DNA of 58,449 nt from Hydrurus foetidus (taxonomy: Eukaryota), in the NCBI GenBank assembly GCA_900617105.1, contig UYFQ01000820.1, forward strand, positions 1 through 58,449, read 5' to 3'. Below the pieces are notes generated by a model. That model ran no database searches. It was given only the letters and a program-made list of their open reading frames with translations, and was not told the origin of the DNA. Position 1 is the first letter of the stretch. Each line of letters begins with the position of its first letter. The position numbers were made by a program, and so were the translations under genes. This document shows positions 2,114 to 32,062 of the stretch, one piece after another.

Positions 2114-2400
2114 TGTAATCTAAACTGTTGAGAGCTGTGTACGTTCAGCCTCAAGAGCAAACCGATGAACACAAGTTTACGAGTGTTTAGATTAACTTAT
2201 GCCGTAAGTGTCTGGAAAGGCTACAGATTGAATGAGAGATGAAGATGGTACATTGAAGCGATGAAGATCGTGTATACGGTGTATGCCGCTGTCCGCGTAC
2301 ATGAGTGTATATGAACACGTTGGCCCGGATACGTATCCCCAGTGATCGTATACAGTCCGCACGCTGTACGCTGTACGGTACGGTACGGTACCGAAGTAAC

Positions 2401-2725
2401 TGTTGGGATTTCTCTAAATCCGGATGCTTTGTGACTAATGCGACCGGAGACCCAAGGCTCGTAAAATAGGTTTGTGTTGCGTAATTACTTGATAATTAAA
2501 CTTGTGCACCGGCATCAATCAAGACGGCAACGAAGCTTTACATATCAAGACAATTGCACGTTTTCACCCATGTTGAAGACAGGTGAATGGATGGCTCCAC
2601 GAGCCCACACATCCAACGGTCAGCGGTACGTGCGCTATGATGCACGCCGCTGTCCGTCGGGTTCCATACATATACTATACAACTACAGCAGTGTCTTTTC
2701 TCCGGATACTCCAACACACCCAACA
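2401..2725 (-). repeat. Copia-2 3' LTR
   Basis: Direct repeat of 15193-15517; 7-bp terminal inverted repeat TGTTGGG/CCCAACA. Confidence 0.95.
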
Positions 2726-2887
2726 GTCACGCAGTAGTTGAGCACCCAGGCATGCATAGGATTTTCATGTCAGCAATAAAATAAATATGAATTGTTTTGC
2801 AAGCAGTAACGTCTAACTAAGTGTTCTCGAATGGTGCAGTGCATCTGCCTCCGGCACCCTTAATTCTTTCCCTCGACCGTGGGCCAC

Positions 2888-3217
2888 TGTTACATTCGTT
2901 ACTTCATATCAATCACACGTATGTACATACACAACGCACGTCACTCGTAGCCACTAGTTTTTCGGACCAGTTTTCGGTTTCTGACTGTTCGACAACTTCA
3001 ACTCGAGACATACTCCATCGTAGCTAATCTCACACTCCTTTCACATCTTATTAACTACCGTTACTACAAACCCAAAACCAACTTCGACTCCTTTGAGTCA
3101 GCCAAATCCCTTGCTCAGTCCAATTCGTCTGACAAGATCCCCAGTTGCGCCAATCTACCCAACTGGACAATTAACGTTTCATCTTCGACCAGTTCGTCGA
3201 AGCCGTGACACAGCATA
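2888..3217 (+). repeat. Gypsy 5' LTR
   Basis: TGTTAC...GTGACACAGCATA, repeated at 10061-10390. Confidence 0.93.
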
Positions 3218-3418
3218 AATATATATTTCTAGTAAACACGAGACAACGTTTATTACAATCGACTCCCCTCAGTTGATTTGTTTCTTACACGCCAGAAAGC
3301 AGTGAACGCCCTGGCTCAGCGAGATTCAGAATCTCTGAGGTAAGTGAAGTCTAAATCCAATACGTTCGCAAAGCCACTCCGAGAAGAAGAGGTCTACATC
3401 TCCTTTCTCTTTTAAACA

Positions 3419-5130
3419 ATGTCGGAAGGAAAGGGAATCCAAACTCAAGACTTGAAGAAGGAAGAAGCAAAGAAGAAGATCGAGGGCTTAAAAGAAGATC
3501 AGACAGAAAATGCAATTCTTGAGCTCAAGGAAATGTTTTCCCAATTCTTGATATCAAGCAATCAAACTCAGGCTAGCAACCGCGCCGACATCAACGAATT
3601 GAAAGAGGCAATCAAAGCAATTAACAGATCTAGCACTCAGTCTCCAATGGGCTCGGAAAGCATGGAGACTCCTTATCCCGTTAGATCTCGTGGCAGCAGA
3701 AGATCTTCAATGTTCTTCGGCATATCTCAACTTCCATCAACCCCACAGCTCACGGATACGCTCCTCGCAGATACGCCGTTCAAATCGAACATACAAGTGC
3801 TTCAAGCCGATATTGTATACGACAAGGAACTCAAAGTCAGTTCACTTGAAGGTCTTCAGTACTTAGCTCGACAACTTCAACTACTATCTTCTAAATATCC
3901 TGGCCGCGAAATTAAAATGGCTCACATGGTTTCCTACAACCTACGTCCACACGTCGTAGCATCGTGGAATTCCCATCGTTATCGAGAATCTCTCATAACT
4001 GGCCTTGAATCCAACGAAATTATGGTAGAAGATTGGCTATCTCTATCAAATTCGGAAGTCCAAGCTATCCTGGTAGAGGCTGCGAGGCCACGCACAAAAG
4101 AACTCTACTCGAAAGAACTCATCCTATTTCTCGGCAAAGGAATCCCACAAGCCCCATCCATAACCACCGAGAACTTCTCCAGTACGTTTTACGCCCCATT
4201 AATGAAGTCACTGACCGACTTACATCACCTACATGATCTTATGTCCGAGGAAACTTCCAACCATAGCACGAACAAATCAAAGATACCGGTCCAAGCCTAT
4301 GGAACTAGGGACAGCCCTGGCCAAATTGCCTTATGGCTCATCTCCTTGGGCACACAAAAGACTCAATCTTACAGTGGCTTAGTAAGGACGAACTGGTTAA
4401 ACACAAGACTTTAGAATCATCAGTCAAGTTCATCAGAGCCAGGCTCATGGAAGGCCGCGTCCAAAGCGAGTCTCGTCAAGACTTTGATGCAAAGCTCACT
4501 CCTATACGCTATGAAGATTTACGCTACACTCAAGGCGAATCCTATACACGCCAGCAGATCTCAGCACCTAACCGTCCGCAATTCACCACTCCACGCAGAC
4601 ATGACCAACGACTGCAGTCCAACTTTGCATCAATCGAGCTCTCTACCCAACAGATGTCATCCACACATGACAATGAAAATGATGAGGACACAGAAGATGA
4701 AAATGCGCCTACATACTCGGCTGAAGATCTAGATCTTTCAAATGACGCGAACGCGGAAATATCTACTGAGGATTCACTTCTTGCAATCAGTACAGATCAG
4801 CATCGTTCACGCTCAGCTGTTTCTGCCACATTTCGTGGATTTTGCAGCGAAGCATTTGTCTACGGTAGATGCACACGCCAGAGTTCTGGTTGCACCTTCG
4901 ACCATTCAACTGCAGGTCAAGAACGCTGCATTCAATCATTTACACTACTTGCCAAACGTGAGCTCCAACAGCATGGACAGCTCGAGCCATGGTCTTCGCC
5001 AAAACAAGAACCAAGTAGCAACTTGAAAACAAACAACTCACAGAGCTTTAAAACCACCAGCTCTACGAACTTCCGTGGAGTCATAAAGCCTACTTATCCG
5101 TCCACCTCGACACGTCCAAATCAGAAATAG
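3419..5130 (+). CDS. gag: Gypsy Gag-like ORF1, split into 3419-4414 and 4333-5130 by a probable 1-nt deletion in the A run at 4356-4359
   Basis: Lies between the LTR and pol; adding one A gives the continuous reading LWLISLGTQKDSILQWL; N-terminal coiled-coil-like segment; CCCH-type motif near the C-terminus. Confidence 0.75.
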
Positions 5131-8100
5131 GATTTTGCGAGGCCTTCCTTTGCCGAAATGCATATCGAAGATCACCTCGCCTCCTCTAATGACTATCCGC
5201 ATCCGACAATCTTTGACCCGGACAAAATCCTAACGCAAGCACTGCTCAACCAACTAGCATCTGCGACATCTACTACGTCACAAACTCTATGTCAACCCTT
5301 CATTCGTTCTGGTACCATTGTAACTAACACTGGTCTGATGCCTTTCAGTCGTGGTTTACTTGATACTGGCGCACAGGGAAGCAACTTCATCTGCAGAGAA
5401 CTATACGACAGCCTACCTCCAAGTGTTACTGACCTCAGTCGTCCAATCGATAAAATTGTTCGCCTCGGCGATGCTCGCTTCCTGTCAATTCAACTTGAAG
5501 TTCCACTCACTGTCGGTATCCTGGATTCCACCAACAACAATCATCAACATCGCCTCTGGTACAGCGTCCTTGACATCCTAAGTCATGACATTATCATTGG
5601 TTTGATTGATCTCATCGGTCCATTCTACGACCTATTCGCTGATTCTGTCCTAACAGCACGCCAGTTATCAATCACCAATGATCTAGGAACAAATTTAACA
5701 GAAGATACAAAAGCAATAAGTAAGCTTCGTCTTCAACACAATCAAGAGGACGTACTAAAAGCGAAACAGAAACTGCAAGAATGCAGTGCAGACTATCTTG
5801 GACGCAAAGATGTGATGTGCAACAGTGCCAGCACTCACATTCACCTACTTGCGCTCGAAGATGGAAAAGTAACAAACATTCTCGCACATCCCCGCCTAGG
5901 TCACGTCTTCGCTGACGACCGGGTCGAAAATCAATACACCATGTTATCTGCGCTACTATGCTCCCCAGATCCTGGTGACATCATTAGGCCCTGGTCTAAG
6001 CCCATAGACTCTCTTGCACCTGAAGAGATCAATACCCCAGACCCGACTAGTTTCCCCGATGATATTCTTGCCTACCTTACAACTACTCCGGAAGAAGCTC
6101 GTGCTATATATGACTCTGATCTGATCACACACGTGACCACTGAAATTCGCACTGCTTGCCCAGCAATCATGATACTCCTCCAATCAGAACTTGCCTACGA
6201 TGTCTTTGTTCCACGTGCGTGGAAGGGAATTGACATGGTGCCGTACCATCTAGATGTCAAACCTGGCTTACCAGATTACCTAAGGGCACGAGCTCGTCCC
6301 GTTAGAGAAGCCTTATTTCAAGATGCTAAAACTGAATTTGATCGAATGCGTACGTACTTCTACGAGCCATCTACATCTTCAATAGCTTGTCCGCTCGTAA
6401 TAGCACCCAAAGCAACAGCTCCATTTATACGGCTCTGCGGCGACTATCGCCCTATTAATCCATTCATTAGCATCCCACAAGAGCCAATACCACACGTCCA
6501 ACAGTCCCTTTCAAAAGCTGCTGGTTGGAAAATCTTCGTCGATCTCGACATGACAAATTCATTCCATCAAATTCCTATCGATGACTTTAGTTCCAACCTC
6601 CTCTCTGTATCTACACCATGGGGTTTGTTCCGGCCAAAGTTTCTTCCGGAAGGAGTTGGTCCAGCATCTGGTATTCTGCAGTCCATCGTTCGCCGTATCT
6701 TCGCCGACTTCGACGACTGGATTATAGTCATCTTTGACAACTTTCTCATTCTTGCCTCCGACTACCACGATGCTCTGTCGAAACTTGAGCAGGTGCTACA
6801 CCGTTGCCAAAAGTATGGTCTCGTCCTAAAGATGAAGAAGTCTTGGATAGGTACAGACGTTGTTACGTTTTTTGGATACGAAGTTCACCCTGGTTCATGG
6901 CAGCTCTCGGATGCACGCAAAGCTGCCATCTCATCGATGATCTTCCCAACAACACAAAAACAAATGCAAAGCTTCTTAGGAGCAGCAAACTTCTTCCACA
7001 CTCACATTCCCAATTTCGCCTCATGGGCATCCGCCTTATACGAATGCACTACCGCTGGCTTCAACTGGGACCCTTCAACATGGAAAACCGACTATAAACA
7101 TTTGTTCGAAGTCTTCAAATTAGCCATCACTGAATCCGTCACACTACACTTTCCAGACTACTCGCTGCCATGGATTATTCGATCAGACTCTTCTGATCAC
7201 GCCGTCGGCGCTGTTCTGTTTCAAGAGTACACAGACTCCAATGGTACAGTCATACACCAACCAATCGCATTTGCCTCACATAAATACTCTGGAGCTGCAG
7301 TCAATTGGGACACCTTCAAACAAGAAGCGTATGCGCTGTATTATGCAGTCACTCAATTTAACTACTACCTACGTGGTAAACCGTTCCTAATGGAAACCGA
7401 CCACCGCAACCTTGTCTGGATTGAGACCAGCCATGTTCCGATCGTTGTTCGCTGGCGTGTCCTTCTCCAGAGCTTTGTCTTTGACGTCAAGCATATACCC
7501 GGCAAAAGCAATACTGTCGCAGATTGGCTCTCACGCATGTACCCTCCGCCTACAACACAAACGACTCTATCTACCATCTCAACTCCTCTTACTGTACAGC
7601 ACATGTTTGATGCTGTTCATGGTGGTCGCTCACTACACCACGGTGCAAAACGTACTTACCTTGCTCTCTGTCGACAATTTCCTGGCCATGGTATCCCTCT
7701 ACGTGTTGTTCAAGATCTTGTGTCTGAATGTCCTATCTGTCAGAAGGACCGACTCCCAATGCACACAATTCCCAACAATGAGATCCGTGAGACAATTTTT
7801 CATCATCCTCGGTCGATAGGAATCGATCACGTCACTGTCACTCCACACGACGAAGATGGATATGTCGGTCTACTTCTTGTCGTAGAACTCGACACAAAGT
7901 TCCCTCAGGCTTATCCGATCCGAGATTACACAGCCAAAACAGTTGCACTCATACTCTTCAAACACTTCTGTACCTTTGGATCCTATGACTCTCTGTACTC
8001 CGATCCTGGCAGTGCATTCACCGCCGAAGTACTGAACCATCTCAATCGCTGGATCGGTATTCCACACCGAATATCCCTCGTCGGACGACACGAATCAAAC

Positions 8101-8886
8101 GGTACAGAACACGTAAATGCTCTATTCATGGGACAATTACGTAGACTAGTACATGATGAAAGATTTACAAATCAATGGGCTTCCGACACAGTCCTACCCC
8201 TAATCAATCACGCACTTATGACGATGCCAAACACCGAAATTGGAGGCTTGTCTCCCGTCGAACTCAAATTCGGCACGCGAGATCATGCACGGTTCCAACT
8301 TCCGCCGCCACTACTGCCGGGACACAAGTATTGTGACCTTGTAACAGCCCTTGATCGCAATCTAGCAATAGTACGATCAATAACCAGTACATATCAGGAA
8401 TCACTACGCAGCAAACGTCAATCCAAAACGCCTTCAAGTTCGCACAACATATACCAACCTGGAGACTTCATCCTATGGAATCCACTAGAGACTCCACAAT
8501 CCCTACGATCCAGTAAGCTTTCTCCAAAGCTCCTCGGTCCCTACGAAGTAATACAACAAATAAAAAACGATATTAAATGCAAACATCTCGTTACCAACAT
8601 CATCTCAGTACTTCACTCAAGCAGAGTTACACCATTCGTTGGTACTACAACCGATGCACAAACATCAGCACTTCTCGACAGTGATGAATTCATTGTCGAT
8701 TCAGTCATTACTCACCGTGGAAATGCGAAGAAAGTGTCCTCCCTCGAGTTCCTAATCCGCTGGTTCAACTACTCCTCAGCACATGATTCATGGGAACCAT
8801 GGGCTGAAATGAAAAAGGTATCGGTTGTACACGAATATCTCGAACAAAACAACATGTCAAACATCATTCCACAACAGTACAAGTAA
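5131..8886 (+). CDS. pol: Gypsy Pol (protease, RT, RNase H, integrase, chromodomain); first ATG at 5158
   Basis: LLDTGAQGSNFI; RLCGDYRPIN, DLDMTNSFHQI, IFDNFLI; RSDSSDHAVGAVL, TDHRNL, ADWLSR; HHCC (HGGRSLHHG..CPICQK), IDH/SDPG/GTE, GPY; chromodomain FLIRWFNYSSAHDSWEP. Confidence 0.95.
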   Translation, partial: DFARPSFAEMHIEDHLASSNDYPHPTIFDPDKILTQALLNQLASATSTTSQTLCQPFIRSGTIVTNTGLMPFSRGLLDTGAQGSNFICRELYDSLPPSVTDLSRPIDKIVRLGDARFLSIQLEVPLTVGILDSTNNNHQHRLWYSVLDILSHDIIIGLIDLIGPFYDLFADSVLTARQLSITNDLGTNLTEDTKAISKLRLQHNQEDVLKAKQKLQECSADYLGRKDVMCNSASTHIHLLALEDGKVTNILAHPRLGHVFADDRVENQYTMLSALLCSPDPGDIIRPWSKPIDSLAPEEINTPDPTSFPDDILAYLTTTPEEARAIYDSDLITHVTTEIRTACPAIMILLQSELAYDVFVPRAWKGIDMVPYHLDVKPGLPDYLRARARPVREALFQDAKTEFDRMRTYFYEPSTSSIACPLVIAPKATAPFIRLCGDYRPINPFISIPQEPIPHVQQSLSKAAGWKIFVDLDMTNSFHQIPIDDFSSNLLSVSTPWGLFRPKFLPEGVGPASGILQSIVRRIFADFDDWIIVIFDNFLILASDYHDALSKLEQVLHRCQKYGLVLKMKKSWIGTDVVTFFGYEVHPGSWQLSDARKAAISSMIFPTTQKQMQSFLGAANFFHTHIPNFASWASALYECTTAGFNWDPSTWKTDYKHLFEVFKLAITESVTLHFPDYSLPWIIRSDSSDHAVGAVLFQEYTDSNGTVIHQPIAFASHKYSGAAVNWDTFKQEAYALYYAVTQFNYYLRGKPFLMETDHRNLVWIETSHVPIVVRWRVLLQSFVFDVKHIPGKSNTVADWLSRMYPPPTTQTTLSTISTPLTVQHMFDAVHGGRSLHHGAKRTYLALCRQFPGHGIPLRVVQDLVSECPICQKDRLPMHTIPNNEIRETIFHHPRSIGIDHVTVTPHDEDGYVGLLLVVELDTKFPQAYPIRDYTAKTVALILFKHFCTFGSYDSLYSDPGSAFTAEVLNHLNRWIGIPHRISLVGRHESNGTEHVNALFMGQLRRLVHDERFTNQWASDTVLPLINHALMTMPNTEIGGLSPVELKFGTRDHARFQLPPPLLPGHKYCDLVTALDRNLAIVRSITSTYQESLRSKRQSKTPSSSHNIYQPGDFILWNPLETPQSLRSSKLSPKLLGPYEVIQQIKNDIKCKHLVTNIISVLHSSRVTPFVGTTTDAQTSALLDSDEFIVDSVITHRGNAKKVSSLEFLIRWFNYSSAHDSWEPWAEMKKVSVVHEYLEQNNMSNIIPQQYK

Positions 8887-9046
8887 ACTTACCTTCAAAC
8901 TCCATCCTGCTCCAGCTGGAACATTTCAGTCTTTGAGAACACGTCTGAGGCTTGCCCACATTCCTTTTCCCACTCAATGAAACATAGCCGAAGCTACTAT
9001 GTGAGGACGGCATTCAAAATGTGGGTTTGCCCCCTAAAATAATACT

Positions 9047-9685
9047 CTATTTAGTTATCTTCGCTTTCTTTCCCTTCTCATACAAGTCAAAATAATAACA
9101 ATCCGTCAAATCAATCATCTTGCCTGCCAAGTTCACAATGCTAAAATCAATGCTACCCTTAGTACATGCATTATCAAATAATCTCAATCCATTTTCATCA
9201 TTACGAACACTACATGCATGATCTTTACGACTCAATCCCTTGGCCACCTTGCAGAAAATCTCGAGTTCTTCACCCATGCAATCTGCTTTCTTCATCCTTT
9301 TGATAAGCGCCTCGTGAAACCGGTTCAACCGCTTTGCTTTGCCGAATATCACATAAATTCCTCTCCTTCTTCCTACTGTCTTCATCAACGACTGAACGTT
9401 CCAACGGCGGCTCTTGTCGTGTCTTCCTACAACCCTCCTGAACTCAAACTTCAACTTTATCCCCAGTTCTCGATTCCCAGCACACACATACTTCAGAAAA
9501 CCAACTGCATCTTCCACCGATGCGCCGTAGTGAAGCTTATGATCAAGAGGCAAACCCGCAGATTCCTTGAACACATCGCCTGCATCGCCACCCAGTCGCA
9601 TCCACCCCTGCTGCTGCGCAGACAGTGGCAAAACCATCGCAGCGGCCATGCACAAGTTTTTCGACGGCTGGAACTCGTCCTTCAT
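9047..9685 (-). CDS. Antisense extra ORF of the gypsy element (212 aa), putative papain-like cysteine peptidase fold
   Basis: Intact ATG-to-stop ORF between pol and the PPT with protein-like composition; Q6-x5-C12 (QPSKNLCMAAAM), DHACSV and LFDN motifs. Confidence 0.6.
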   Translation of the reverse strand: MKDEFQPSKNLCMAAAMVLPLSAQQQGWMRLGGDAGDVFKESAGLPLDHKLHYGASVEDAVGFLKYVCAGNRELGIKLKFEFRRVVGRHDKSRRWNVQSLMKTVGRRRGIYVIFGKAKRLNRFHEALIKRMKKADCMGEELEIFCKVAKGLSRKDHACSVRNDENGLRLFDNACTKGSIDFSIVNLAGKMIDLTDCYYFDLYEKGKKAKITK

Positions 9686-9854
9686 GATGCTGTGTACTTG
9701 AGTTGTGAATATCCTAACGATTCATTCAGTATGAGGTATGTGGTGTATAGTCGAATATTTCGCGACTCGACTTTTTCCTTTCCTGAAAAAACCATTTTGC
9801 AGCCACGTCACAATTTTTCCGGCGCCCTGAAAAGTGGCATGAAAAATGTTCTTT

Positions 9855-9940
9855 TTGCACTGGTCTATTGGGAGAGCACGAGACTCACAACGCTCAAGGC
9901 CGTGAGTTCGAACCCTGTACAGCTCACACCCATATTTTTT
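9855..9940 (+). ncRNA. Degenerate tRNA-like / Pol III cassette inside the gypsy 3' region
   Basis: A-box-like TGGTCTATTGG (9861-9871), CTCACAA anticodon-loop-like motif, B-box-like GAGTTCGAACC (9904-9914), T6 run (9935-9940); no intact acceptor stem. Confidence 0.5.
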
Positions 9941-10047
9941 AAATTCACATAATTTAGCTTTTCTAGCGATACCCTGTATTTGATGAACTCACTGAGATGT
10001 AGTTAATACAGCGTATTTATTTTTTATCATTGTAATACATTTCACCC

Positions 10048-10060
10048 GGAAAGGGGGTGG
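10048..10060 (+). promoter_or_regulatory. Gypsy polypurine tract
   Basis: GGAAAGGGGGTGG abutting the 3' LTR. Confidence 0.85.
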
Positions 10061-10390
10061 TGTTACATTCGTTACTTCATATCAATCACACGTATGTACA
10101 TACACAACGCACGTCACTCGTAGCCACTAGTTTTTCGGACCAGTTTTCGGTTTCTGACTGTTCGACAACTTCAACTCGAGACATACTCCATCGTAGCTAA
10201 TCTCACACTCCTTTCACATCTTATTAACTACCGTTACTACAAACCCAAAACCAACTTCGACTCCTTTGAGTCAGCCAAATCCCTTGCTCAGTCCAATTCG
10301 TCTGACAAGATCCCCAGTTGCGCCAATCTGCCCAACTGGACAATTAACGTTTCATCTTCGACCAGTTCGTCGAAGCCGTGACACAGCATA
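10061..10390 (+). repeat. Gypsy 3' LTR
   Basis: Direct repeat of 2888-3217, preceded by the PPT and followed by TSD CCAC. Confidence 0.93.
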
Positions 10391-12390
10391 CCACCCTGTG
10401 AGCCCGTCTCTCTCTCTCTGGAACTGGGACCCTTGGAGCGGCTTGGTCAGCACGTTTGCATACATGTCCTCGCTCCGTAGGTACTCCACACGCACTTCTC
10501 CGGTCACCACCCGCTCTTTCACCCAGAAGTAACGTATCTGGATATGGCGCGTACGTTCCGCTCCGGATCTCCCGCGCTCCACTAGTGCCATGCAGGACTG
10601 GTTGTCCTGGTAGATGGTCACCGGCTCCATTTTGTATCCCTGTGCAATGAGAAAAGCACGGACGAAAATACCCTGGTTAGCTGAGTCGGACAACCCACCA
10701 GCTCCGCCTCCGTACTCGACTTTGTCACTATCAGCTGCTTTGATGACCGGCAGTGCACGGCCCCGACATCGCCAATTACCACACAGCTCCCCGTGTGGGA
10801 CTTCCCATCGCTGTGTACCCCGTAGGATGCATCCACGAATAGCCGTACCGAGATCCCCTCCGCACCCGGCCTTAGCAGTACGCCGCTGTCCCTAGTCCCC
10901 TGTATGTATCGCACTAAGCGCTGTAGTTTGTCGACATCGTCTGTCGTGCACTTGTGAACTCGCGTGGCTAGAAAGGCCACAGCTACGAGGCACTCCGGCT
11001 TGGTACGCTTGGCCAAGTAGAGCACCATGGCGACCACCTTGTGGAACCAGACCCTTACCGGCTCTGTTACTGCACCAGCACCCTCTCTGGTCTCGAACAG
11101 TCCCTCTGTGGCCGGTGTCCGCGCTACCCCTTTCACTCCTGATATCTTGACTATTTCGTCGCAGTACCCTGAGGTGGTGATCGTCGCCTGTCCTGGTACA
11201 TGCATATCTATAGCCATGCCGAGGTAGTTTATGACAGGCCCATGCGATAAAGTGATTGCACCGTACCTTTTGCGCAGTCCGTCGACTAGGTGGGCCATGG
11301 TCTCCTTGCTCTTGCTAGTGATGAGTAAGTCGTCCACGTGCACTGCAGCAGTACACTGGTGCCCGTCTGGGCCTATTCGGTTGAATACGCATTTGTCGCT
11401 GATATTCCGTACGTACCCCAGTTCGAGCATGGTGGCGCGCAAATTCTCATACCACAGTCCTGCGCTCTCTACGCAACCGTATAGTGCTTTCTTGAGATGT
11501 ACTGTGACTCCCCCTCTTGCATCTGTGTACTTACCGTACCTTGGATCGATGCTGATGATGATATCTGTCATGGTACGGTCAAGGCGCATGTGCACTGGCA
11601 CATCCATCGTCATGTCTGCGTTGAGATATGCTCCGCTTATGTCTACTACTGCGACGCGTCGCTTCTCATGTGCTGCTACGGTCAACAGGGTGAATACCGC
11701 ACACGTGGACACGGTTGGGGAGGATAGGTCTTCGTACAGATCCTTGTCTTGCTGGTCACCCCCTGCGACTAGTCGAGCTTTGAGCTTGAGGAAGCTTCCA
11801 TCCGGGTTGTTCTTCTGCTTCAAGAACATGGACGACCTAATAGTAGATGCTCTCTGCATCGCTGATAGCTTGCCCCCCATCACCGGTGCCCATACCCTTT
11901 TGTCTATCATCTGCCTGAGCTCCGACACGATGACCTTCTTGGCTTCGTCCCCTCTGGTGCGAAATGCTTCTTTGACGCTGATGTTGGCTGTGCTGCTCCT
12001 GCCCATTTCCTCCCTGTGGCGTTTCATCACTTCGTCTATGGTGTGCATCGACTGTGCTCCGCCTGCTAGTCTCGCGGTGGTACCCTCCGTGCTTGTCACG
12101 AACGCATCCTCGTTCGTACGGGCTGACCTAGTCACCATTCGCTCTGTTGGTGCTGGTGCTCTGCGTGGCTCTCTCACCGGCGATTGCACTGAGTGCGCGA
12201 GCTGCTGTGGGGCTGATTCGCTGTCGAGTGCAGGTGTGTCGACTGGAGTGTCGTCAGGCTCAGTCGATGGTGCGAGTGGTGGTGGTGATGGTGGTGTAAG
12301 TACGTCGCTGTCTTGCACCCTCATCTGTTCGAGGGCCTCAGTTCCGATTTCATCGGGTAAATCAGTTGTTTCCGCTGCTGCGACTGGTAC
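10391..12390 (-). CDS. pol: Copia-2 reverse transcriptase and RNase H; frame break near 10694-10696; last codons (PTVEGKN*) displaced to about 2860-2883 by the gypsy insertion
   Basis: KLKARLVAGG, LKKALYGC, VHVDDLLI (RT); FVDASY, STEAELV, YQDNQSC, ANVLTKPL (RNase H). The reconstructed empty site reads LTGWPTVEGKN-stop. Confidence 0.9.
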
Positions 12391-15167
12391 CCCCCCCCCA
12401 CATCGGAAGTAGGGATCTCGAAAATGCTGTCTGCTGGTTGTAGGTCGGTGAGTGTGGGTTGTTGGTCACTCGATCCGGCGTCGACAAGTGCATCCTGAGT
12501 GGGGGGGTTGGTAATGAAATGTGGCATTTTAGACTTGTCGAGACTGTTCGCGAATAGTAGTTCATCAAGCACATGCAATTGAGTGTTATTTATTTTCTTC
12601 CCTTCTCTGACTGCCATGGCATTCAGCGTCGCGATGACTGACTGTGGCATTGGCAGTATCTTGAATTGGTCCCTTGTGACGATTTTGCCAGTTGCCAATG
12701 ACAGCATCTTGAATGATCCAGTTCTGCTGTGTGTAGGCAGCATAACAATGCAGTCGTCAGTTCTAGATAGCATAGTGTTGTTGGTGTTAGGTACTGTACA
12801 GACGGCGTAATCCCCATAGGCGGCACGAAAGTCCAGGTTCCCGTCAACCCGCCGTCCAGAAAATAGTTCCCTCGGCGAAAGACCCCCTGGCCTTGATCCT
12901 GACTGCTGGCAGTTAATGCGGGAGACGCAGTACAGAGCTAGATAGGTTAGACAGAGTTCGGTTGGAGTGAATGGGATCCTACCGTTGAGGTGAGCGCGTG
13001 CTCGCTCCTTCACCATCTGAATCCGTCGCTCGATTCTGGCCACATGTCCGCCAGCTGCGCTGACATCCACCTCAATTCCCATAGCAAGTAGATCTAGTTT
13101 CATTTTCCCTATAGCACCTTCTCCGTCGGACATGATGACTTGCACCATAAAGTTCCTGGACTTGAGGATTGATATCATCTCGTTCAACGCTGGCTTCACT
13201 ACAGCAGCAGCACGGGAGGTCTTATCAGTGTCTAGTCGGATGAGACTCACAGCAAGTGTCATATCCAGAGGGGTGGATACAGCGATAAGTATCGCTGTTG
13301 TCTCTAGGTACATTATATCCACGCTTAGGACTTGGTGTTGCTGCGCTGGTGCTGGTGTCACTGAAATGTCCGGCACTGGAGAAGACTTCTTGTGGGTTTT
13401 TCCTCTAAGGCTGGCGAGGCATTTGCCCCAGATTGTGTGGGCGTTTCTGAAGTCGGCTTCAGAGACGCTGAAGTTGTTTCCTCCTCTGATCATTGCGATA
13501 GCCATCTCGACCGGTGGATAACCCATCCGGGCTAGCATCTCTCTGGCTGCTGCTGCCGATGCAACCTCTCGTTTCGTGAACCGAGCCATGTTGTCTCTGA
13601 CGGTCGTCACCAATGCTTGCTCCTGTATCGCCACGCTACTCGCGTCCCATACATAGAATCTTCCCGCCGACCCTGGCAGGTCCTGTCTACTGAAGTGATA
13701 CTTCGTCTTGCTGCCAGCTGGTCGAAGTGTGAAGCACCCACCCTCATGATCGTAGCTGATCTCGGCACCTCTGTCTGCCATCGCTGCGAAGGAGAGTATG
13801 TTAGCTGTTGCTCTGCGAGTGAAATATACTGGTCCGATGTCTCCAAAGTTGCCCTCCTGTTCGACTCGGACCTTCTTTGCTTCAGACTGAACTCCTTTGA
13901 GGAGGATCGCATTCTGTGATTTCCTAATGTCGGTGAGAAGCGCGGAGTTAGAGAAGATGTTAACTGACGCCTGATTGTCCAACAGCACGTGACTTTGAGT
14001 GAACAAGGCAACTTCATCTGTCGTGATGAAAGCCGCCTCGATACTCTCGTCGTCTTCCTCTACATCTTCTTCGATGTTGGTGTGCAGCGCATGCTCTCCT
14101 TCTTTGCGCTGATCGCAGTCTCTAGCGAAATGTCCCGTCTTTCCGCATACGAAACATATCACTGACGATGCTTTCTTCTTTGTCCCAGCTGTCTTTCCCT
14201 TCGATCCTTTTCCCGCGACTTTTTCCTTTGTGCTCATCAAAGAATCGGTCAAGAACGCGGAATGTTGCTCGGCGCCAAGGGGGACTCCTCTGCTCGAGCT
14301 GGTCCAGGATGACGCTACCCTGTAGGCTCCGGCTAAGGTAGAAGGGAAGCTATTCGGCAGGTTTTGTACGGCATTGTTACGCATAAGGGTCAACATACCG
14401 GTATACCTTTTCGGGTCTAACTTACTGAGAAAATCGATTGCCCTAATCGGTTCTTCGACTTCTGTCATACCAACACCTCTGTTGGCCGACACCTGGTTAT
14501 CGAACCGTGTCTTGAAGTCTCCAATTACCTCACGTTCCCCTTGTCTGAGGTAGTTGTACCTGATGGTCTGCTCATGCACATTCATTGCCCTCATCGAATC
14601 ATCTTCGCCGTAGATGTGAGTTAAATGACTCCTTCTAATGTATTCCCACAGTTTTACACTGTCGAGTCTGAGGCGAGCCGCTTCGAACCCTGGCTCCTCA
14701 CGAACCTTGGATTTGGACCCTGTTGACATTCTCGACCACATTAGTGGAAAGAGCTTTTGCTCATCGACTTTTTGCGTTTCGACTGCCTTGCGGCGTCCCT
14801 CGAATGCATTGGCGCGCAGCTTGTCGATGAGCGCCTCGGAGTACACGACAGGAGGCACCGGTGGAGGCTGTGGTCCGATCATGACATCATCGAGGTCTAC
14901 GGATTCGTCTTCCTCGTCTTCATTTTCGGTACCCGCCGTCTGAATATCCGTTTCCACTGTTTGGAAGGTGGGATTGTAATCCTCCTCGCGAGGATACGGA
15001 TGGACGTAGCTTTTGTTGGTGGTGAAGAACGTGCCTGTCATCCCGTACAGGCCGCATGCCTCGTTCTGCATGTCTTCCCTCCATTGCACCACGTTGTTGT
15101 AACGTCCGATTCTCAGCATGCACTGCTCTGCACCTGATTTTGGTTCTTCTTGTTTCTTCGGCGGCAT
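12321..15167 (-). CDS. Copia-2 Gag-protease-integrase; frame breaks at the G10 run (12390-12399)
   Basis: CCHC knuckle CFVCGKTGHFARDC; protease-like LLDNQASVNIF; integrase core LSVDIMY / MSDGEGA / ARIERRIQMVKER. Confidence 0.9.
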   Translation of the reverse strand: MPPKKQEEPKSGAEQCMLRIGRYNNVVQWREDMQNEACGLYGMTGTFFTTNKSYVHPYPREEDYNPTFQTVETDIQTAGTENEDEEDESVDLDDVMIGPQPPPVPPVVYSEALIDKLRANAFEGRRKAVETQKVDEQKLFPLMWSRMSTGSKSKVREEPGFEAARLRLDSVKLWEYIRRSHLTHIYGEDDSMRAMNVHEQTIRYNYLRQGEREVIGDFKTRFDNQVSANRGVGMTEVEEPIRAIDFLSKLDPKRYTGMLTLMRNNAVQNLPNSFPSTLAGAYRVASSWTSSSRGVPLGAEQHSAFLTDSLMSTKEKVAGKGSKGKTAGTKKKASSVICFVCGKTGHFARDCDQRKEGEHALHTNIEEDVEEDDESIEAAFITTDEVALFTQSHVLLDNQASVNIFSNSALLTDIRKSQNAILLKGVQSEAKKVRVEQEGNFGDIGPVYFTRRATANILSFAAMADRGAEISYDHEGGCFTLRPAGSKTKYHFSRQDLPGSAGRFYVWDASSVAIQEQALVTTVRDNMARFTKREVASAAAAREMLARMGYPPVEMAIAMIRGGNNFSVSEADFRNAHTIWGKCLASLRGKTHKKSSPVPDISVTPAPAQQHQVLSVDIMYLETTAILIAVSTPLDMTLAVSLIRLDTDKTSRAAAVVKPALNEMISILKSRNFMVQVIMSDGEGAIGKMKLDLLAMGIEVDVSAAGGHVARIERRIQMVKERARAHLNGRIPFTPTELCLTYLALYCVSRINCQQSGSRPGGLSPRELFSGRRVDGNLDFRAAYGDYAVCTVPNTNNTMLSRTDDCIVMLPTHSRTGSFKMLSLATGKIVTRDQFKILPMPQSVIATLNAMAVREGKKINNTQLHVLDELLFANSLDKSKMPHFITNPPTQDALVDAGSSDQQPTLTDLQPADSIFEIPTSDVGGGYQSQQRKQLIYPMKSELRPSNR

Positions 15168-15192
15168 CTCGATGCGCTGACAAGTTTAATTA

Positions 15193-15517
15193 TGTTGGGA
15201 TTTCTCTAAATCCGGATGCTTTGTGACTAATGCGACCGGAGACCCAAGGCTCGTAAAATAGGTTTGTGTTGCGTAATTACTTGATAATTAAACTTGTGCA
15301 CCGGCATCAATCAAGACGGCAACGAAGCTTTACATATCAAGACAATTGCACGTTTTCACCCATGTTGAAGACAGGTGAATGGATGGCTCCACGAGCCCAC
15401 ACATCCAACGGTCAGCGGTACGTGCGCTATGATGCACGCCGCTGTCCGTCGGGTTCCATACATATACTATACAACTACAGCAGTGTCTTTTCTCCGGATA
15501 CTCCAACACACCCAACA
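15193..15517 (-). repeat. Copia-2 5' LTR
   Basis: Direct repeat of 2401-2725; ends 25 nt before the gag ATG at 15167. Confidence 0.95.
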
Positions 15518-16547
15518 GTAACGGCCAGTTTATAGTTCATACTTTATAACAGAGCATATAATATGGAGATGAGATCAGTCATCGATCACCCACCCCAACG
15601 GATCATTAAAATATTGAGCCCGCTCTTTGCGCATTGAATTAGGAGTAAATCTGTAGGTAGCGAAGCACTGGCTGACTATCTGAAGTGACAATTTTCTTGA
15701 AGAGTTGCATCGTTTGAAAAGCTATCGTGGTTAGGTTCTCCGAATATACTGAATTCAGACAAAAATTGAGGGAAATCAGATCCTTCAGAGACTGGTTCTT
15801 ATCGATATTTGACGAGTCCAATTAGAGCAGCTATGGCTGGTCGCCGATCTTTGAATGCATTTCTCGCATTCAATTTCTTTCTCGTAATCGCTGGTTTGCT
15901 ATCTTACCGTGCCATCTACTCGGCCAGATCTAAGGAGCCAGCCATAACAGAGTCCTCTCTGAAAGCACAATCTGGTAGCTGTTGTTGCAATTGCTTCTGT
16001 GAACTTGCTCCTTTCATGACCTATGAAGCTGCAACTGTTGTTCGATACTGTATCGCTTTATCTGAGTATTACAATATCACTCATGTAGAAAATAAACTCC
16101 GTTGCAATGTTGATTTTTACTTTAATTCGTGAAAATGTTCGCCTGATAGTAACCATATAATTGCATGGTGAATCGACAGTGTCCGATCAAGGACTAGAAC
16201 CACTGGCATCAATTATTTCTACTGGTGAGAACATTTAAAATAGCAGGACGATGTTTCCGTTCGTGTTCTGCCGATTTTAGACTGTATGATCGATGTCCTG
16301 AATTACTGCTACATGACAATCTGATGCGATGATGAGTAAAAGAAAAAATCCACTTCCCGCTCATTCCTGCGTTTCATCGAGCATTACCCGATTGACTGTT
16401 GTTGGGAGGAACATTCAATACTCACAGATACAATTGATATTATTTGCAAACATTCCCAACAAAAAATTAAAATGACATCGAAAACACTCTTTTCGCCTCC
16501 CAATTTATTGAATCTATTTTATTCTTCAATGAATAGAAGACAACAAG

Positions 16548-24183: not shown

Positions 24184-25073
24184 ATTCGCAAAAAAAAAGA
24201 CGAAAAGCGATCAGAAAGAATAAATGAAAGAAAGAGTGAATGAATGAAGAAGAAAGAAGAAGATTATACCGTGAAAATAAAATTCGGTCGAAATTATATC
24301 CGTACAAAATTGAAGGTTACGCAACCAGGTGGTACTTTTGTAAAATACTTACACGAAGCATTTACACGTAGTTACACACACCACACGCAATTGCTCTCGA
24401 ATATCCGACTTTTAATAGTGTTATATTATGACCTGTTGGCCGGTTATGTCATCCGTAGTCCTGCTGAATATACCGCATACCGTAAGATGGCCCGTATAAT
24501 GGGCCATTCCGGTATAATTCCTTTACATAGTTATCATCGCACTGTCACGATCAGCTCGATGCCTTCATCGAATTAGATGAAAATCTTCAGACAATATGCT
24601 GCCACTTCATAATTAAAATGACAATTGAGAGCTCTCTTCGTAAGTACGTCCAAGGTACCGTCCGTCCGTTTAAACACACTTTCACCGTACACTGAAAAGA
24701 ATGTCTTTCAAAACAGTGTCCTTAGGCTCTGGTCTAGTCTGAGTTATCTCTTTCTAATCTACGAGACATTAGTTTACTGCTAATGTCTAATGTCTGAATG
24801 ATATCTGCAGAACAGTCTCCTTCGCTCTATACTGAGAATGCAGTTCAACTTGAAGAAACACGAATAATCATGGTTTATTATGTATTCTGCAAGATGTGTT
24901 ACTTCAAAAAGTGTCCTGTCAAATGCAGTCTTCTCTTCTCTGCTGATTGCTGATCACTGATCACTTCTTTCCCAGCTAGGGTTTCAAATAATAGCGATAC
25001 GGCATCAGCATTTCTTTCTATGTACTAGAAACGGAGCAGCCGCAGCCATCACCTTCACCTTGGTCACACCAGC

Positions 25074-27707
25074 ATGACGACAGATGTCCAAGATTCCAAG
25101 AAACAGAGCGAATTGAATGTCTCTGATTCCAGTGGTTCACTGCTGTCTTTGTTGTGCGAGCAATTGTCCAATGGTGAAGTAGCGGATATGGCGAGTAATA
25201 TCGAGGAGAAATTGGCACAACACCGTGATGTAGCAAGTTCAGTGTTGGATAATATTTTCGCTGATCTCCGAAAGGATTGCAGTGAGATAATAGCTGAGCA
25301 GATCAAATGCGACGCATACTCCAGAAAGGTCGCAAGATACTGCGATAGCAAGGAGAACGATCAAACAAGAAGCTTTATTTTAAAGTTGAATGTCGGGGGA
25401 CGAAACTTCGATGTAAGTGAGAGCTCGATTCCCCGTTCAGAACCTGAGCACAACATCCTCAGTATATTACTCTCGCTCAAATCGGCACGTCACTTCATAA
25501 GAGATGAAAGAGGCCGAATATTTCTGAATGTGAATCCCGATTGGTTCGAGGCGATCATCAACCCACTGCGCAGGCGACATGCTGTAAATTACTCGAAGCA
25601 ACCGATACCTAAAATCAACCCTGAGCATAGGACTGGATTTCATGCAACCATCCTGTACTACAATCTATTTGCAGCATTCATCGATAGCAATTTGCATCTA
25701 TCGACCGTATCCAATATCGAATGCATGAACAATCATGATTCTATGGCGCTTTTACATCCGTTCCTGGCGCCAGAGTTCTCAACGTGTAGCCAACCCCCAA
25801 AGATTGGACTGAATCTGCTGTATCGAGGAACACGCGATGGATTCGAGCCGACGAATTTCATGGATAAGTGTGGTGGAGGCATATGTGAAACAGTTTGCAT
25901 TGTGGAGGATACGAAGGGTAATGTTTTCGGGGGATTTGCGAAAACAGAATGGGAGAACAACACAACCAATAGTGGCGAATGCTTTTTGTTCACGATCAAA
26001 AATGTCCGAGGGCCAGCGGTGAAGGTAGATCTGAAGACATATTACAAAAACAATGTAGACGCTGGTGTCGAAGGACCAGTAACACTTTCATTCGGACAGC
26101 ACCTCCATATCAACGGACTCGCAGGAACGAGCTGCCAAACAAATTTTCCCCATGATGAAGATTCTGAGGACGACGAAGGCGTACTGTACCTATCGGGAGC
26201 TGATGTCGACTTCACTGTCCGCGAAATTGAGGTGTACAGTATGTCTTGTGCTTATCCCGATGCCAAACCGATATCGCTGTGTTGGGGCGGGATGTACGGT
26301 CCATTATTGTCTTCCATTCGGGATGCTTTGGGACACAGCGAGATCCGAACAAACCTCGTTTATCACTCTACACGGGATGGATTCGACTGCGGCAAATGCC
26401 ATGCTCTATACGATAACAAGCCCATGACATTGTTCATCATCAAGGACGACTCCGGAGAAACCTTTGCATGTTTTTGCGACTTTGCATGGCGCAGAGACAT
26501 GACACAAATCACCTCAAAGTCGGGATTCATTTGTACGCTGGGCGGCACACTTCCTTCTCAAGAAATGAAGCAAATGGAATCAGTGAAATTCAATCCACAC
26601 GTTCTGTGCTCATTTGGGGATTTATTATCAGTACTTACAGACCGCAGCATACTTCAACGAATTGTGCCTCAAGGCACAGCGCACAGCCCACACCCCATAA
26701 GAATAGCGATTGAAATTGCGGTGTTTGGAGTAACCGTTTGTGAGTCTGTAAAAGAGCCCGAGGAGAGGACGTTAATAGCGAGGTCTTTATTGGAGCACAA
26801 ACTGCAATCAGGTACCAACGCTATGCTAGAGGAAATCAAGGAACTGACCCACGATCTGAAAGGAAAACAAGCGAAACTGCTTACCGAGTTGCTATGGATC
26901 GAGCATTTGTCTCGACCACCTAAATCGAGGGATATTGAGATCGGTCTCCTGCGAGAATGGCTCGCAGTGTCAGAAGGTGTCAGAGCTCTTGGAGCGACGA
27001 GCTGCCGCGTGGCGATCATGGCGGAGATCGAAGCGGCAATGACTCGCGTCGAGATGCTTGTATCAGCGAGAAATGCTGACAGCGACGTATCAGCGAGAAG
27101 TGCTGAGAGCCACGTATCGACTGTGAAGAGTGAGGTCGAGGTGGAGCAAGACGAAGTCGTATCCTACAATGTAGGCGGGACCATCATCGCTGTGTTGAAG
27201 AGCACTCTGCTGCGCCAAGCACCTGACAGCACATTCGCCGCAAGGTTCTCTGGTCGGTGGGAAAAGGAGAATGCTCAGGACGATGTAGAGAGTGACGGCG
27301 CGATAAACTTGGTGCGCTCCCACTCTGCACCTTCCCTTCTCTTTTCTGACTGTAACTCTGATTATCTTCCTCGACTGGTTTTCGTACAACGCCTGCTAAC
27401 TTATACCCAACACCACTGATACAGTACGACGCGGATCCAGCCTGCTTCCGCCGCATCATATCTTACCTGCAGCTGAAGGACTTGCTGGGCAAACACGCAC
27501 CTGACTATGTACGAACCACATTATTTTCCAAGGAATAGAAGTGAAATATGACGTGGCACATGTGCATGATGCGAAATGGTTCGATATTTGACTTACTAAT
27601 TATGCCAATCTACAATGCAGATTCTGTCTCCCGAAGAATCCATGGAGGCTCTCGAAGAAATGCTTGATTTCTACTGCATGGGCGACGTAAAAGTTGTGAA
27701 GCAGTAA
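25074..27707 (+). CDS. BTB/POZ-TLDc-TLDc-BTB protein, copy A (exons 25074-27311, 27425-27508, 27621-27707)
   Basis: KCTD-type BTB LKLNVGGRNF..GRIFLNVNPDWF; TLDc LLYRGTRDGF..GNVFGGF and LVYHSTRDGF; second BTB YNVGGTII..RFSGRW completed by two in-phase GT-AG exons (DADPACFRRIISYL; LEEMLDFYCM). Confidence 0.85.
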
Positions 27708-28873
27708 AGCTCCAATAGCAAATACTGAAAGATGGTAATGCGAATTTATGATCGTAGTTAGCGAATATTGCGTGCGATACACACACGTGCGTACTGATTG
27801 TTTCTGTTCTGAAAACTTTTTGGAATTCACACACATGCGTACAATCCTGAGTGCTCATAAGTAATCAGCTCTAGCTTGTTGGTTGTAACTTGCACGGCTT
27901 GAGCTTATTTCCTGTGAGATAGTAGAGTACACTGATGCTAACCCCTACAAATCGACACCGAGAAAATTATCGCCATTTCCATGTACCACTTGGCGGACAC
28001 AACTTAAGACACTGGTACGTGGAAATAGCGATGACATTTTTAAGTTCTCACATGTTGCACGACTGGCTGGCTAACTGGCATACTGAAATTGCGTTGTCCC
28101 TTAAGTAGACTTCCTGGGACGAGGTGTCCATTTTGAGATTGTTTATTTTGTAATTATCCCTTTAATTATCCCTTTAAGTAACCAAATTCGATAGATTTTC
28201 TCACAGCTAGGAATGTTCGTATAATACAAGCAATAAAAAACGACTTGGAAATGTAAAACAATCGCATATCGAAAATAAAATACTCTCAAATACGCCTTCT
28301 TGAGCAGGCATAAAATATTTCGCCTGAAAATTCGCCTTCGTACTCACCACCCTCATAGAGTTTGTAGTTGTGTGTTATTTATCGCCCTAGGGGCTACCGT
28401 ACCGTATACAAAGCTACACGTAGTTCTTAGGAACTCGGAACTTCAAGGAACGATTTAATCCATGCAGTCTTCTTCTTTCTTCAACCGTTCTCTTTCTCTT
28501 GAAGAAGTTTTTTAAAAGTTGATTCGATCGATCACTTCCACCTTCCACGTGATAATTCACGTGGGGAAGCACGTGAATTATCACTGGGGAAGCACAGTAT
28601 ATATACGATAATTCGACTGAAAACTCGGCCGCGTACGAAAAGTCGCTCTCAAATTCGAGTCGAATACAATACTACACGAAATGATGATGTCGCTTTCTTG
28701 TGAGCTGATATTATCTGATATACTGTACTACCCTATGCGAGAGACAGAAACGCAGATACCTAGCAGGTAACAGAAGGAACACCTAAAGAGAGCAGATACA
28801 GTGCGGTTAGAGTGCGACAGTCGGCTGATCGCCTAAGTCCGATCTGAATCTCATCGAGTTGCAGATTTCGTCC

Positions 28874-31800: not shown

Positions 31801-32062
31801 TTCCGCCGCATCATATCTTACCTGCAGCTGAAGGACTTGCTGGGCAAACACGCACCTGACTATGTACGAACCACATTCCTTTCCAAGGAATAGAAGTGAA
31901 ATATGACGTGGCACATGTGCATGATGCGAAATGATTCGATATTTGACTTACTAATTATGCCAATCTACAATGCAGATTCTGTCTCCCGAAGAATCCATGG
32001 AGGCTCTCGAAGAAATGCTTGATTTCTACTGCATGGGCGACGTAAAAGTTGTGAAGCAGTAA
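28874..32062 (+). CDS. Chimeric ORF: JMJD6 N-terminus fused in frame to BTB-TLDc copy B (exons 28874-31666, 31780-31863, 31976-32062; internal ATG 29453)
   Basis: 28874-29357 is nearly identical to 33274-33757; from 29453 it parallels copy A; no stop across the junction. Confidence 0.8.

What the first reader, a model, noticed from the sequence alone, without database searches (positions are those of the whole stretch)
15180..15340. Copia-2 has no tRNA PBS; its PBS is perfectly complementary to its own LTR (self-priming geometry)
Seen: on the element strand the 13 nt right after the 5' LTR are TAATTAAACTTGT, with no TGG start. The exact complement ACAAGTTTAATTA lies inside the LTR (plus 15285-15297), about 92 nt upstream; the match is 14 bp with the LTR terminal A. 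A TATA-like TATGTAAA sits about 32-39 nt upstream of that motif. The enclosed U5 can fold (TTGGG/CCCAA, TCTC/GAGA, TCCGG/CCGGA). Established: S. pombe Tf1 (Ty3/gypsy) primes reverse transcription with the first 11 nt of its own mRNA, cut by RNase H, whereas Ty1/copia elements typically use tRNA or half-tRNA primers. I recall self-priming being only predicted for a few plant copia lineages, which needs a literature check. Inference: a tRNA-independent, self-primed copia lineage in a protist.
Basis: partly seen in the sequence, partly recalled or inferred. Interest (0 to 1): 0.85.

Follow-up and report, generated by a model that had tools for sequence, protein, structure and literature searches.

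The report
Self-priming copia retrotransposon lineage
Where jumping genes of this type normally bind a host tRNA, this one has 13 letters that pair perfectly with its own terminal repeat, and most distant relatives keep the pairing with different letters, so the lineage likely starts copying itself with the front end of its own RNA.

Summary
Observation confirmed. This minus-strand Ty1/copia copy has identical 325-bp LTRs and a 5-bp TSD. The 13 nt after its 5' LTR lack TGG and pair perfectly with LTR 15297-15285 (0 of 5000 shuffles). The geometry is clade-wide: 36 of 43 RT clusters (window included) pair with their own LTR starting at the LTR end, using 35 different 10-mers. Only 13 of 1806 cross-family pairs reach 10 nt. 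Sister families show mirrored changes. The LTR arm starts at C|A in 22 of 36 (background 5%), as a transcription start might. Best reading: Tf1-like self-priming (about 0.85). The TSS, RNase H cut and host tRNAs are untested. The TATA box and U5 fold are not well supported. A second, unrelated copia-like element in the window has a 10-bp version. Self-priming is shown for Tf1 (gypsy) and predicted for plant TAR copia; nine literature searches found no report for diatom-type copia. The scan noted the same geometry earlier in other genomes (32 notes, at least 6 genomes). New variant of a known kind.

The parts
15193..15517 (-). 5' LTR of the copia element (325 bp, TG...CA)
   Evidence: identical to 2401-2725; TSD outside
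15180..15192 (-). Primer-binding site, 13 nt, offset 0 from the LTR end, no TGG
15285..15297 (-). LTR arm complementary to the PBS; predicted first 13 nt of the RNA and self-primer (predicted TSS A15297, preceded by C15298)
   Evidence: complementarity; TSS inferred from the C|A start in 22 of 36 clusters, not mapped
15193..15284 (-). Rest of predicted R-U5; folds a helix next to the PBS duplex, not beyond chance
   Evidence: z -0.57
15329..15336 (-). TATA-like TATGTAAA, not conserved in relatives
   Evidence: 3 of 36
15503..15517 (-). LTR 5' end: carries the clade's PPT-like GGG-TG|TGTTGG junction 9 nt inside the LTR
12321..15167 (-). gag (CCHC knuckle), protease and integrase part of the polyprotein; ATG 25 nt after the LTR end; frame changes near 12390-12423
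10391..12465 (-). RT (Pfam RVT_2, E 2e-20) and C-terminal RNase H region; frame change near 10693-10696; interrupted at 10390 by the nested gypsy element
2726..2887 (-). Last pol codons and 3' untranslated region; no purine tract directly before the 3' LTR
2401..2725 (-). 3' LTR
15518..15522 (.). 5-bp TSD (second copy at 2396-2400)
2888..10390 (+). Nested chromodomain-bearing Ty3/gypsy element (330-bp LTRs, 1 difference, 4-bp TSD); context only
2116..2194 (-). Second, unrelated copia-like element (the one this element inserted into): apparent LTR end 2126, PBS 2125-2116 complementary to its own LTR 2194-2185
   Evidence: (8 of 5000 shuffles reach 10 nt)

Best explanation
This is a young but broken Ty1/copia retrotransposon whose primer site pairs perfectly with 13 bases of its own LTR, a pairing kept with changing letters across a broad clade, so the lineage likely primes reverse transcription with the 5' end of its own RNA instead of a tRNA. 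Predicted steps: transcription starts at the C|A at 15298/15297. The first 13 or so nt fold onto the PBS, closing a roughly 92-nt R-U5 loop. The element's RNase H would cut near the end of that duplex, as in Tf1, and RT extends the freed 3' end through U5 and R. Plus-strand strong-stop synthesis would then copy the primer into the PBS of each new copy, which would explain why the PBS tracks the LTR arm letter for letter. Shown: geometry, specificity for the element's own LTR, mirrored changes, absence of TGG. Inferred: TSS, cleavage, priming, PBS re-templating.
For: Exact 13-14 bp pairing at offset 0, 0 of 5000 shuffles. 36 of 43 RT clusters (35 of 42 relatives plus the window; median pairwise RT identity 48%) have a 9-18 nt own-LTR complement starting at the first base after the called LTR end, p<0.05 against 200 shuffles. 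33 of 43 reach 10 nt or more, against 13 of 1806 cross-family pairs. There are 35 distinct PBS 10-mers among the 36, and none starts with TGG. Sister families show mirrored changes: L042/L052 3 of 16 positions, L003/L006 2 of 10, L003/L033 4 of 10, L020/L057 2 of 11. The arm begins at C|A in 22 of 36 against 5.3% background; where it starts with A, the preceding base is C in 22 of 26 against 18%. The duplex is in the MFE fold in 30 of 32. Where a second LTR fixes the end independently, L015, L019 and L051 give 8, 15 (12 of them past the end) and 12 nt there. Positive rows lie throughout the RT tree, and the window element sits in a 98/98 clade of 11 rows, 8 of them positive. Tf1 precedent: PMC7175516, passage.
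Against: There is no transcript or cDNA evidence and no host tRNA set: no genome is held and the window has no tRNA gene. 7 of 43 clusters fail the strict test, and 44 of 89 loci were dropped for lack of a callable gag start. In most relatives the LTR end was called from an ACA motif in single-LTR contigs, not independently. DNA-tested relatives are only 41-52% identical in RT; closer ones were seen as proteins only. PBS arms are 85% A/T and share a Y-A-A start, which could reflect a common external constraint. Duplex length varies from 9 to 18 nt, against Tf1's 11. The U5 helix next to the PBS is only weakly enriched (26 of 32 against 20 expected; mean loop z -1.0). 6 of 32 testable PBSs pass a loose half-tRNA anticodon-arm rule (no null computed; the window element is not among them).
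Confidence: 0.85

Rival explanations
1. The arm-PBS duplex is a conserved RNA structure with another job (closing the 5' leader for packaging, dimerisation or control of gag translation), and priming uses a host tRNA fragment, another cellular RNA or an unknown route.
For: The gag ATG lies only 25 nt after the LTR end here and within about 11-63 nt in most relatives. The PBS start is partly conserved (Y-A-A). Fungal GalEa copia have a conserved hairpin in place of a PBS that is not complementary to the LTR, with unknown priming (PMC5445492, passages).
Against: The 3' arm starts exactly at the LTR end and the 5' arm at an initiator-like C|A, which a purely structural helix would not need. 35 different, 85% A/T PBS 10-mers without TGG are hard to serve with a fixed host RNA set.
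Confidence: 0.09
2. The complementarity is a by-product of replication (template switching or fold-back repair copying LTR sequence into the PBS position) or a DNA-level signal for integrase, not a priming device.
For: Perfect Watson-Crick matches with few G-U pairs look templated rather than merely selected for folding. This copy also shows an unusual LTR 5' end.
Against: Templating of the PBS is what a self-primer predicts in the standard LTR replication scheme (established knowledge). No alternative primer site is visible, and the coincidence with C|A is unexplained by this model.
Confidence: 0.04
3. Chance complementarity between A/T-rich sequences.
For: Arms are 85% A/T; the LTR end was chosen among several ACA candidates in relatives.
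Against: 0 of 5000 shuffles for the window. The same candidate search gives 13 of 1806 in cross-family controls against 33 of 43 for own LTRs.
Confidence: 0.02

Closest known systems
Tf1/Tf2 of Schizosaccharomyces pombe and the Tf1/sushi group (Ty3/gypsy), including plant Tcn1
   Same: No tRNA PBS; the bases just after the 5' LTR pair with a stretch of the element's own LTR. In Tf1 this is the first 11 nt of the RNA, cut by RNase H between nt 11 and 12 (PMC7175516, passage).
   Different: This element is Ty1/copia (RVT_2; integrase before RT). Duplexes are 13 nt here and 9-18 nt in relatives. The U5 stem-loop that Tf1 needs is only weakly supported. TSS and cleavage are not shown.
TAR lineage of plant Ty1/copia (Houba, Osr-1)
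   Same: Copia elements predicted to self-prime, by a similar rule: at least 10 bp complement starting 0-5 bp after the LTR (PMC6317226, passages). The window element meets that rule.
   Different: TAR is a plant lineage. The look-alikes here are aquatic-metagenome and diatom-type proteins. No TAR sequence was available, so separate origin is inferred, not tested.
CoDi (diatom Ty1/copia) lineages of Maumus et al. 2009; CoDi-like clades A-D of Llorens et al. 2009
   Same: ESM Atlas look-alikes of the RT (0.95-0.96) are eukaryotic, commonest Bacillariophyta, on only 1 and 4 recorded members. Size about 5.6 kb without the nested insert, TG/CA LTRs. The LDNQ-type protease motif resembles CoDi elements (recalled, from no call).
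   Different: No priming mode appears in the passages read: 'tRNA' 0 and 'PBS' 1 unseen occurrence in PMC2806351; 0 for PBS, tRNA and self-prim in PMC2774666. No named CoDi sequence could be placed in the tree.
Fungal GalEa copia with a Conserved Hairpin Site
   Same: Copia without a tRNA PBS; A/T-rich motif right after the LTR, resembling TAATTA.
   Different: The CHS pairs with a downstream arm 12-41 bp away, and the authors found no LTR complement (PMC5445492). Here the partner lies upstream, inside the LTR.

Membership tests
Ty1/copia | Copia-type RT with order gag-PR-IN-RT-RH between direct LTRs with a TSD | tested here: met
   RVT_2 E 2e-20 and zf-CCHC; integrase-like region upstream of RT read from the translation and alignment, with no Pfam hit for IN or RH; LTRs and 5-bp TSD
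tRNA-primed copia | PBS beginning TGG, complementary to a tRNA 3' end | tested here: not met
   No TGG in the window; 0 of 36 positive clusters
Half-tRNA-primed copia (Osser, Bryco, Bianca, FunCo1) | PBS complementary to a tRNA anticodon arm ending near nt 39-40 | tested here: inconclusive
   The window PBS fails a loose anticodon-arm rule; 6 of 32 testable PBSs pass it, with 5 different anticodons and no null. Host tRNAs unavailable.
Tf1-type self-priming (works like) | PBS at the LTR end complementary (10 nt or more) to the element's own LTR | tested here: met
Tf1-type self-priming (works like) | PBS and LTR arm covary between families | tested here: met
   cross-family control; sister pairs
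Tf1-type self-priming (works like) | The complementary arm is the 5' end of the transcript | tested here: inconclusive
   C|A at the arm start in 22 of 36; no RNA data were obtained
Tf1-type self-priming (works like) | U5 stem-loop adjacent to the PBS duplex | tested here: inconclusive
   26 of 32 against 20 expected; 11 of 32 loops with z<-1.65; window z -0.57
Tf1-type self-priming (works like) | RNase H cleavage of the RNA duplex frees the primer | not testable with these tools
   needs biochemistry
Tf1/sushi group (membership) | Ty3/gypsy RT and domain order | tested here: not met
   RT is RVT_2
Plant TAR lineage (membership) | RT/RH/INT phylogeny with TAR elements | not tested
CoDi lineages (membership) | RT phylogeny with named CoDi elements | tested here: inconclusive
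   Atlas lead only; no named member among hits
Fungal GalEa CHS | Hairpin partner downstream of the LTR end, none in the LTR | tested here: not met
   partner is inside the LTR

The most novel reading that the evidence does not exclude
Self-priming is the normal mode in at least two unrelated diatom-type (CoDi-like) copia lineages, both present in this window (no protein similarity), independent of Tf1/sushi and plant TAR. It would then be ancestral to, or repeatedly evolved in, a whole branch of Ty1/copia, with a copia RNase H that cuts RNA-RNA duplexes and releases primers of variable length (9-18 nt).
Probability: 0.4. Interest if true: 0.78.

Novelty: new variant of a known kind. Interest (0 to 1): 0.6.

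Why it matters
tRNA priming is the default for LTR retroelements. Self-priming is proven only in the Tf1 group and predicted for one plant copia lineage. A large, diverse copia clade with covarying self-primers bears on whether hairpin or tRNA priming came first, a question raised in PMC3601003 (passages). It predicts an RNA-duplex-cutting activity in a copia RNase H, and it gives a base-precise TSS prediction for dozens of families. Annotation pipelines that keep only elements with a tRNA PBS (as in PMC7466962, passage) would likely discard these elements.

Tried and rejected
No whole genome is held, so other copies and host tRNAs could not be searched; ARAGORN and Rfam found nothing in the window. 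No sequencing-run data were obtained, so the TSS is unmapped. Gag-based scans of viral and metagenome contigs found no relatives, nor did RT or Copia-1 scans of viral contigs; the RT-based scans supplied all loci. An automatic TG...CA inverted-repeat call of LTR ends was unreliable and was not used for counts. A relaxed first count (38 of 46 at 10 nt or more) included three spurious pairings (L034, L037, L041) and near-duplicates, and was replaced. The two-LTR filter also returned L009, L035 and L057, whose repeats do not look like LTR ends and give 8 nt or less. TATA box as a conserved feature: rejected (3 of 36). Self-priming of the nested chromovirus: no LTR complement at offsets 0-5 (best 4 nt; weak inverted repeats only). 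Host identity: Atlas search with a BTB-TLD gene was inconclusive; cluster look-ups gave no organism names. Naming the lineage from papers failed: supplements of PMC2806351 unreadable, no CoDi in the five held supplement files of PMC6317226, PMC1563812 not held.

Full report
Observation. The element lies on the minus strand. Its LTRs, 15517-15193 and 2725-2401, are 325 bp, identical, TG...CA-ended and flanked by a GTTAC duplication. The 13 nt after the 5' LTR have no TGG and are the exact complement of 15297-15285, 14 bp with the last LTR base. None of 5000 dinucleotide shuffles of the LTR reaches 13 nt. The gag ATG is 25 nt after the LTR end. The polyprotein has a CCHC knuckle and an RVT_2 RT. 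Against intact single-ORF relatives it changes frame near 12390-12423 and 10693-10696; these could be mutations or assembly errors. A chromodomain gypsy element is inserted in the last pol codons. The copy is young and probably inactive.

Relatives. Protein searches found many unnamed metagenome relatives. RT-based DNA scans gave 79 + 10 loci, 32-65% identical over the best segment; gag-based and viral scans gave none. Many contigs are collapsed single-LTR circles. 45 of the 89 had a callable gag start; 44 were dropped. At 90% RT identity these form 42 clusters, 43 with the window. For each, every [ATG]ACA within 300 nt of the gag ATG was tried as the LTR end, and the longest perfect complement starting at the next base was recorded. 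36 of 43 beat 200 shuffles (a shuffle of two-letter blocks) at p<0.05, where about 2 are expected by chance. 33 of 43 reach 10 nt or more. The same search against other families' LTR regions reaches 10 nt in 13 of 1806 pairs. Duplexes are 9-18 nt; there are 35 different PBS 10-mers among the 36; none begins TGG; the arm-to-LTR-end distance is 100-267 nt in the 32 where it could be measured. Sister families differ in the PBS and the arm changes to match. The positive rows are spread over the RT tree, and the window element falls in a supported 11-row clade with 8 of them (midpoint root, no named outgroup).

The seven misses. Looked at after the fact: L084 has 17 bp with one G-U when the LTR-end motif is relaxed and its near-copy L085 has 17 perfect bp. 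L073 has 12 bp. L054 has 10 bp at offset 3, and L007's cluster-mate L008 has 10 bp. L015 and L016 have 8 perfect bp at the right place, 10 of 11 by eye. L034 shows nothing convincing. These were not added to the count. LTR ends fixed by a second LTR copy (L015, L019, L051) agree with the geometry.

Transcription start. The arm begins at C|A in 22 of 36 (background 5.3%), and a CA lies within two bases of the arm start in 30 of 36. A pyrimidine-A start resembles a eukaryotic initiator (own knowledge), which supports but does not show that the arm is the RNA 5' end. A TATA-like motif 15-40 nt upstream occurs in only 3 of 36. The duplex is in the MFE fold in 30 of 32; structure in the enclosed loop is modest (mean z -1.0) and absent beyond chance in the window.

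Mechanism. By analogy with Tf1, the RNA 5' end would pair with the PBS, RNase H would cut, and RT would extend the released oligomer. Because plus-strand strong-stop DNA copies the primer into the next PBS (standard LTR replication), self-priming predicts the letter-for-letter tracking seen. A structural hairpin with another primer, or a replication by-product, remain possible until the TSS and the primer-cDNA junction are seen. Against the reading: no RNA data, no host tRNA test, only distant DNA relatives, A/T-rich arms with a conserved Y-A-A start, and variable duplex length.

Second lineage. The element sits in the LTR of another copia-like element whose apparent LTR end (2126) is followed by 10 nt complementary to its own LTR (8 of 5000 shuffles). 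Its proteins show no similarity to the first element or to any fetched protein, and its copia assignment rests on motif order read by eye (no Pfam hit). It is one copy, and no relatives were found.

Host. Not determined. Atlas look-alikes of the RT are eukaryotic, commonest diatoms, on very few records; a host gene was uninformative.

Literature. PMC6317226 (passages; five held supplement files searched): self-priming described for Tf1/sushi and predicted for Tcn1 and the copia TAR lineage. PMC7175516 (passages): Tf1 mechanism. PMC5445492 (passages): GalEa hairpin site. PMC3601003 (passages): hairpin priming as a possible ancestral state. PMC2806351 (passages and one methods section; supplements unreadable, and they may list PBS features) and PMC2774666 (passages): CoDi lineages, with no priming mode in what was seen. 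PMC7466962 (passages). The Levin, Lin and Atwood-Moore papers were seen only as reference titles. Nine searches found no report of self-priming in diatom-type or other protist copia; subscription journals, GyDB and Repbase are not covered. The scan's own notes hold 32 similar findings in at least 6 other genomes, of which 8 were shown. They are unchecked AI notes, read after my own tests, and are not counted as support.

Verdict. Real feature; most likely Tf1-like self-priming in a broad copia clade (0.85). New variant of a known kind; interest 0.6.

Noticed in passing
window 2116-2194 (-); element runs from about 15550 to beyond base 1: A second copia-like element, with no protein similarity to the first, has an apparent LTR end at 2126 followed by 10 nt that pair with its own LTR (8 of 5000 shuffles). 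The predicted fold extends the duplex imperfectly to a C|A. Its other LTR is outside the window, so the end is not independently fixed. The studied element inserted into its LTR.
   Followed up: partly
window 15503-15517 and 2711-2740 (-): Both LTRs begin 9 nt upstream of the clade's junction (GGGG-TG|TGTTG, 23 of 30 relatives; true LTR start in 3 of 3 relatives with a 5' flank). The PPT-like GGGTG is thus inside the LTR and no purine tract precedes it. Possibly a retained plus-strand primer with integrase using an upstream TG (speculation).
   Followed up: partly
window 2888-10390 (+): Nested chromodomain gypsy element with TG...TA LTRs and a 4-bp TSD. The bases after its 5' LTR have neither TGG nor an LTR complement (best 4 nt), so its priming mode is unexplained. 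It also has a 224-codon antisense ORF at 9047-9721 with no Pfam hit.
   Followed up: partly
window 2126-15550: Triple nesting: gypsy inside copia inside the LTR of another copia-like element; the two complete elements have 0 and 1 LTR differences, so both are recent.
   Followed up: yes
window 34450-42230: A 7.7-kb degenerate TG/TC-rich microsatellite-like array (periods 8, 16, 44) following a short ORF at 33229-34071 that looks JmjC-like (by eye, recalled; no Pfam hit).
   Followed up: partly
window 25000-32084: Tandem duplication (95%) of a BTB/POZ plus TLDc gene.
   Followed up: partly
P0279, P0296, P0282: Some related polyproteins are longer and carry extra precomputed Pfam hits (PF00856, PF01693, PF22936), suggesting captured domains.
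   Followed up: no
L080-L089: Ten copia contigs sit in bacterial MAG records, most likely mis-binned eukaryotic DNA.
   Followed up: no
P0123, P0139, P0200, P0219: N-terminal extensions of predicted proteins read through the PBS region. P0123 (96% gag identity) keeps both arms at the protein level; P0219 implies a changed PBS in a closer family whose LTR arm could not be seen.
   Followed up: partly
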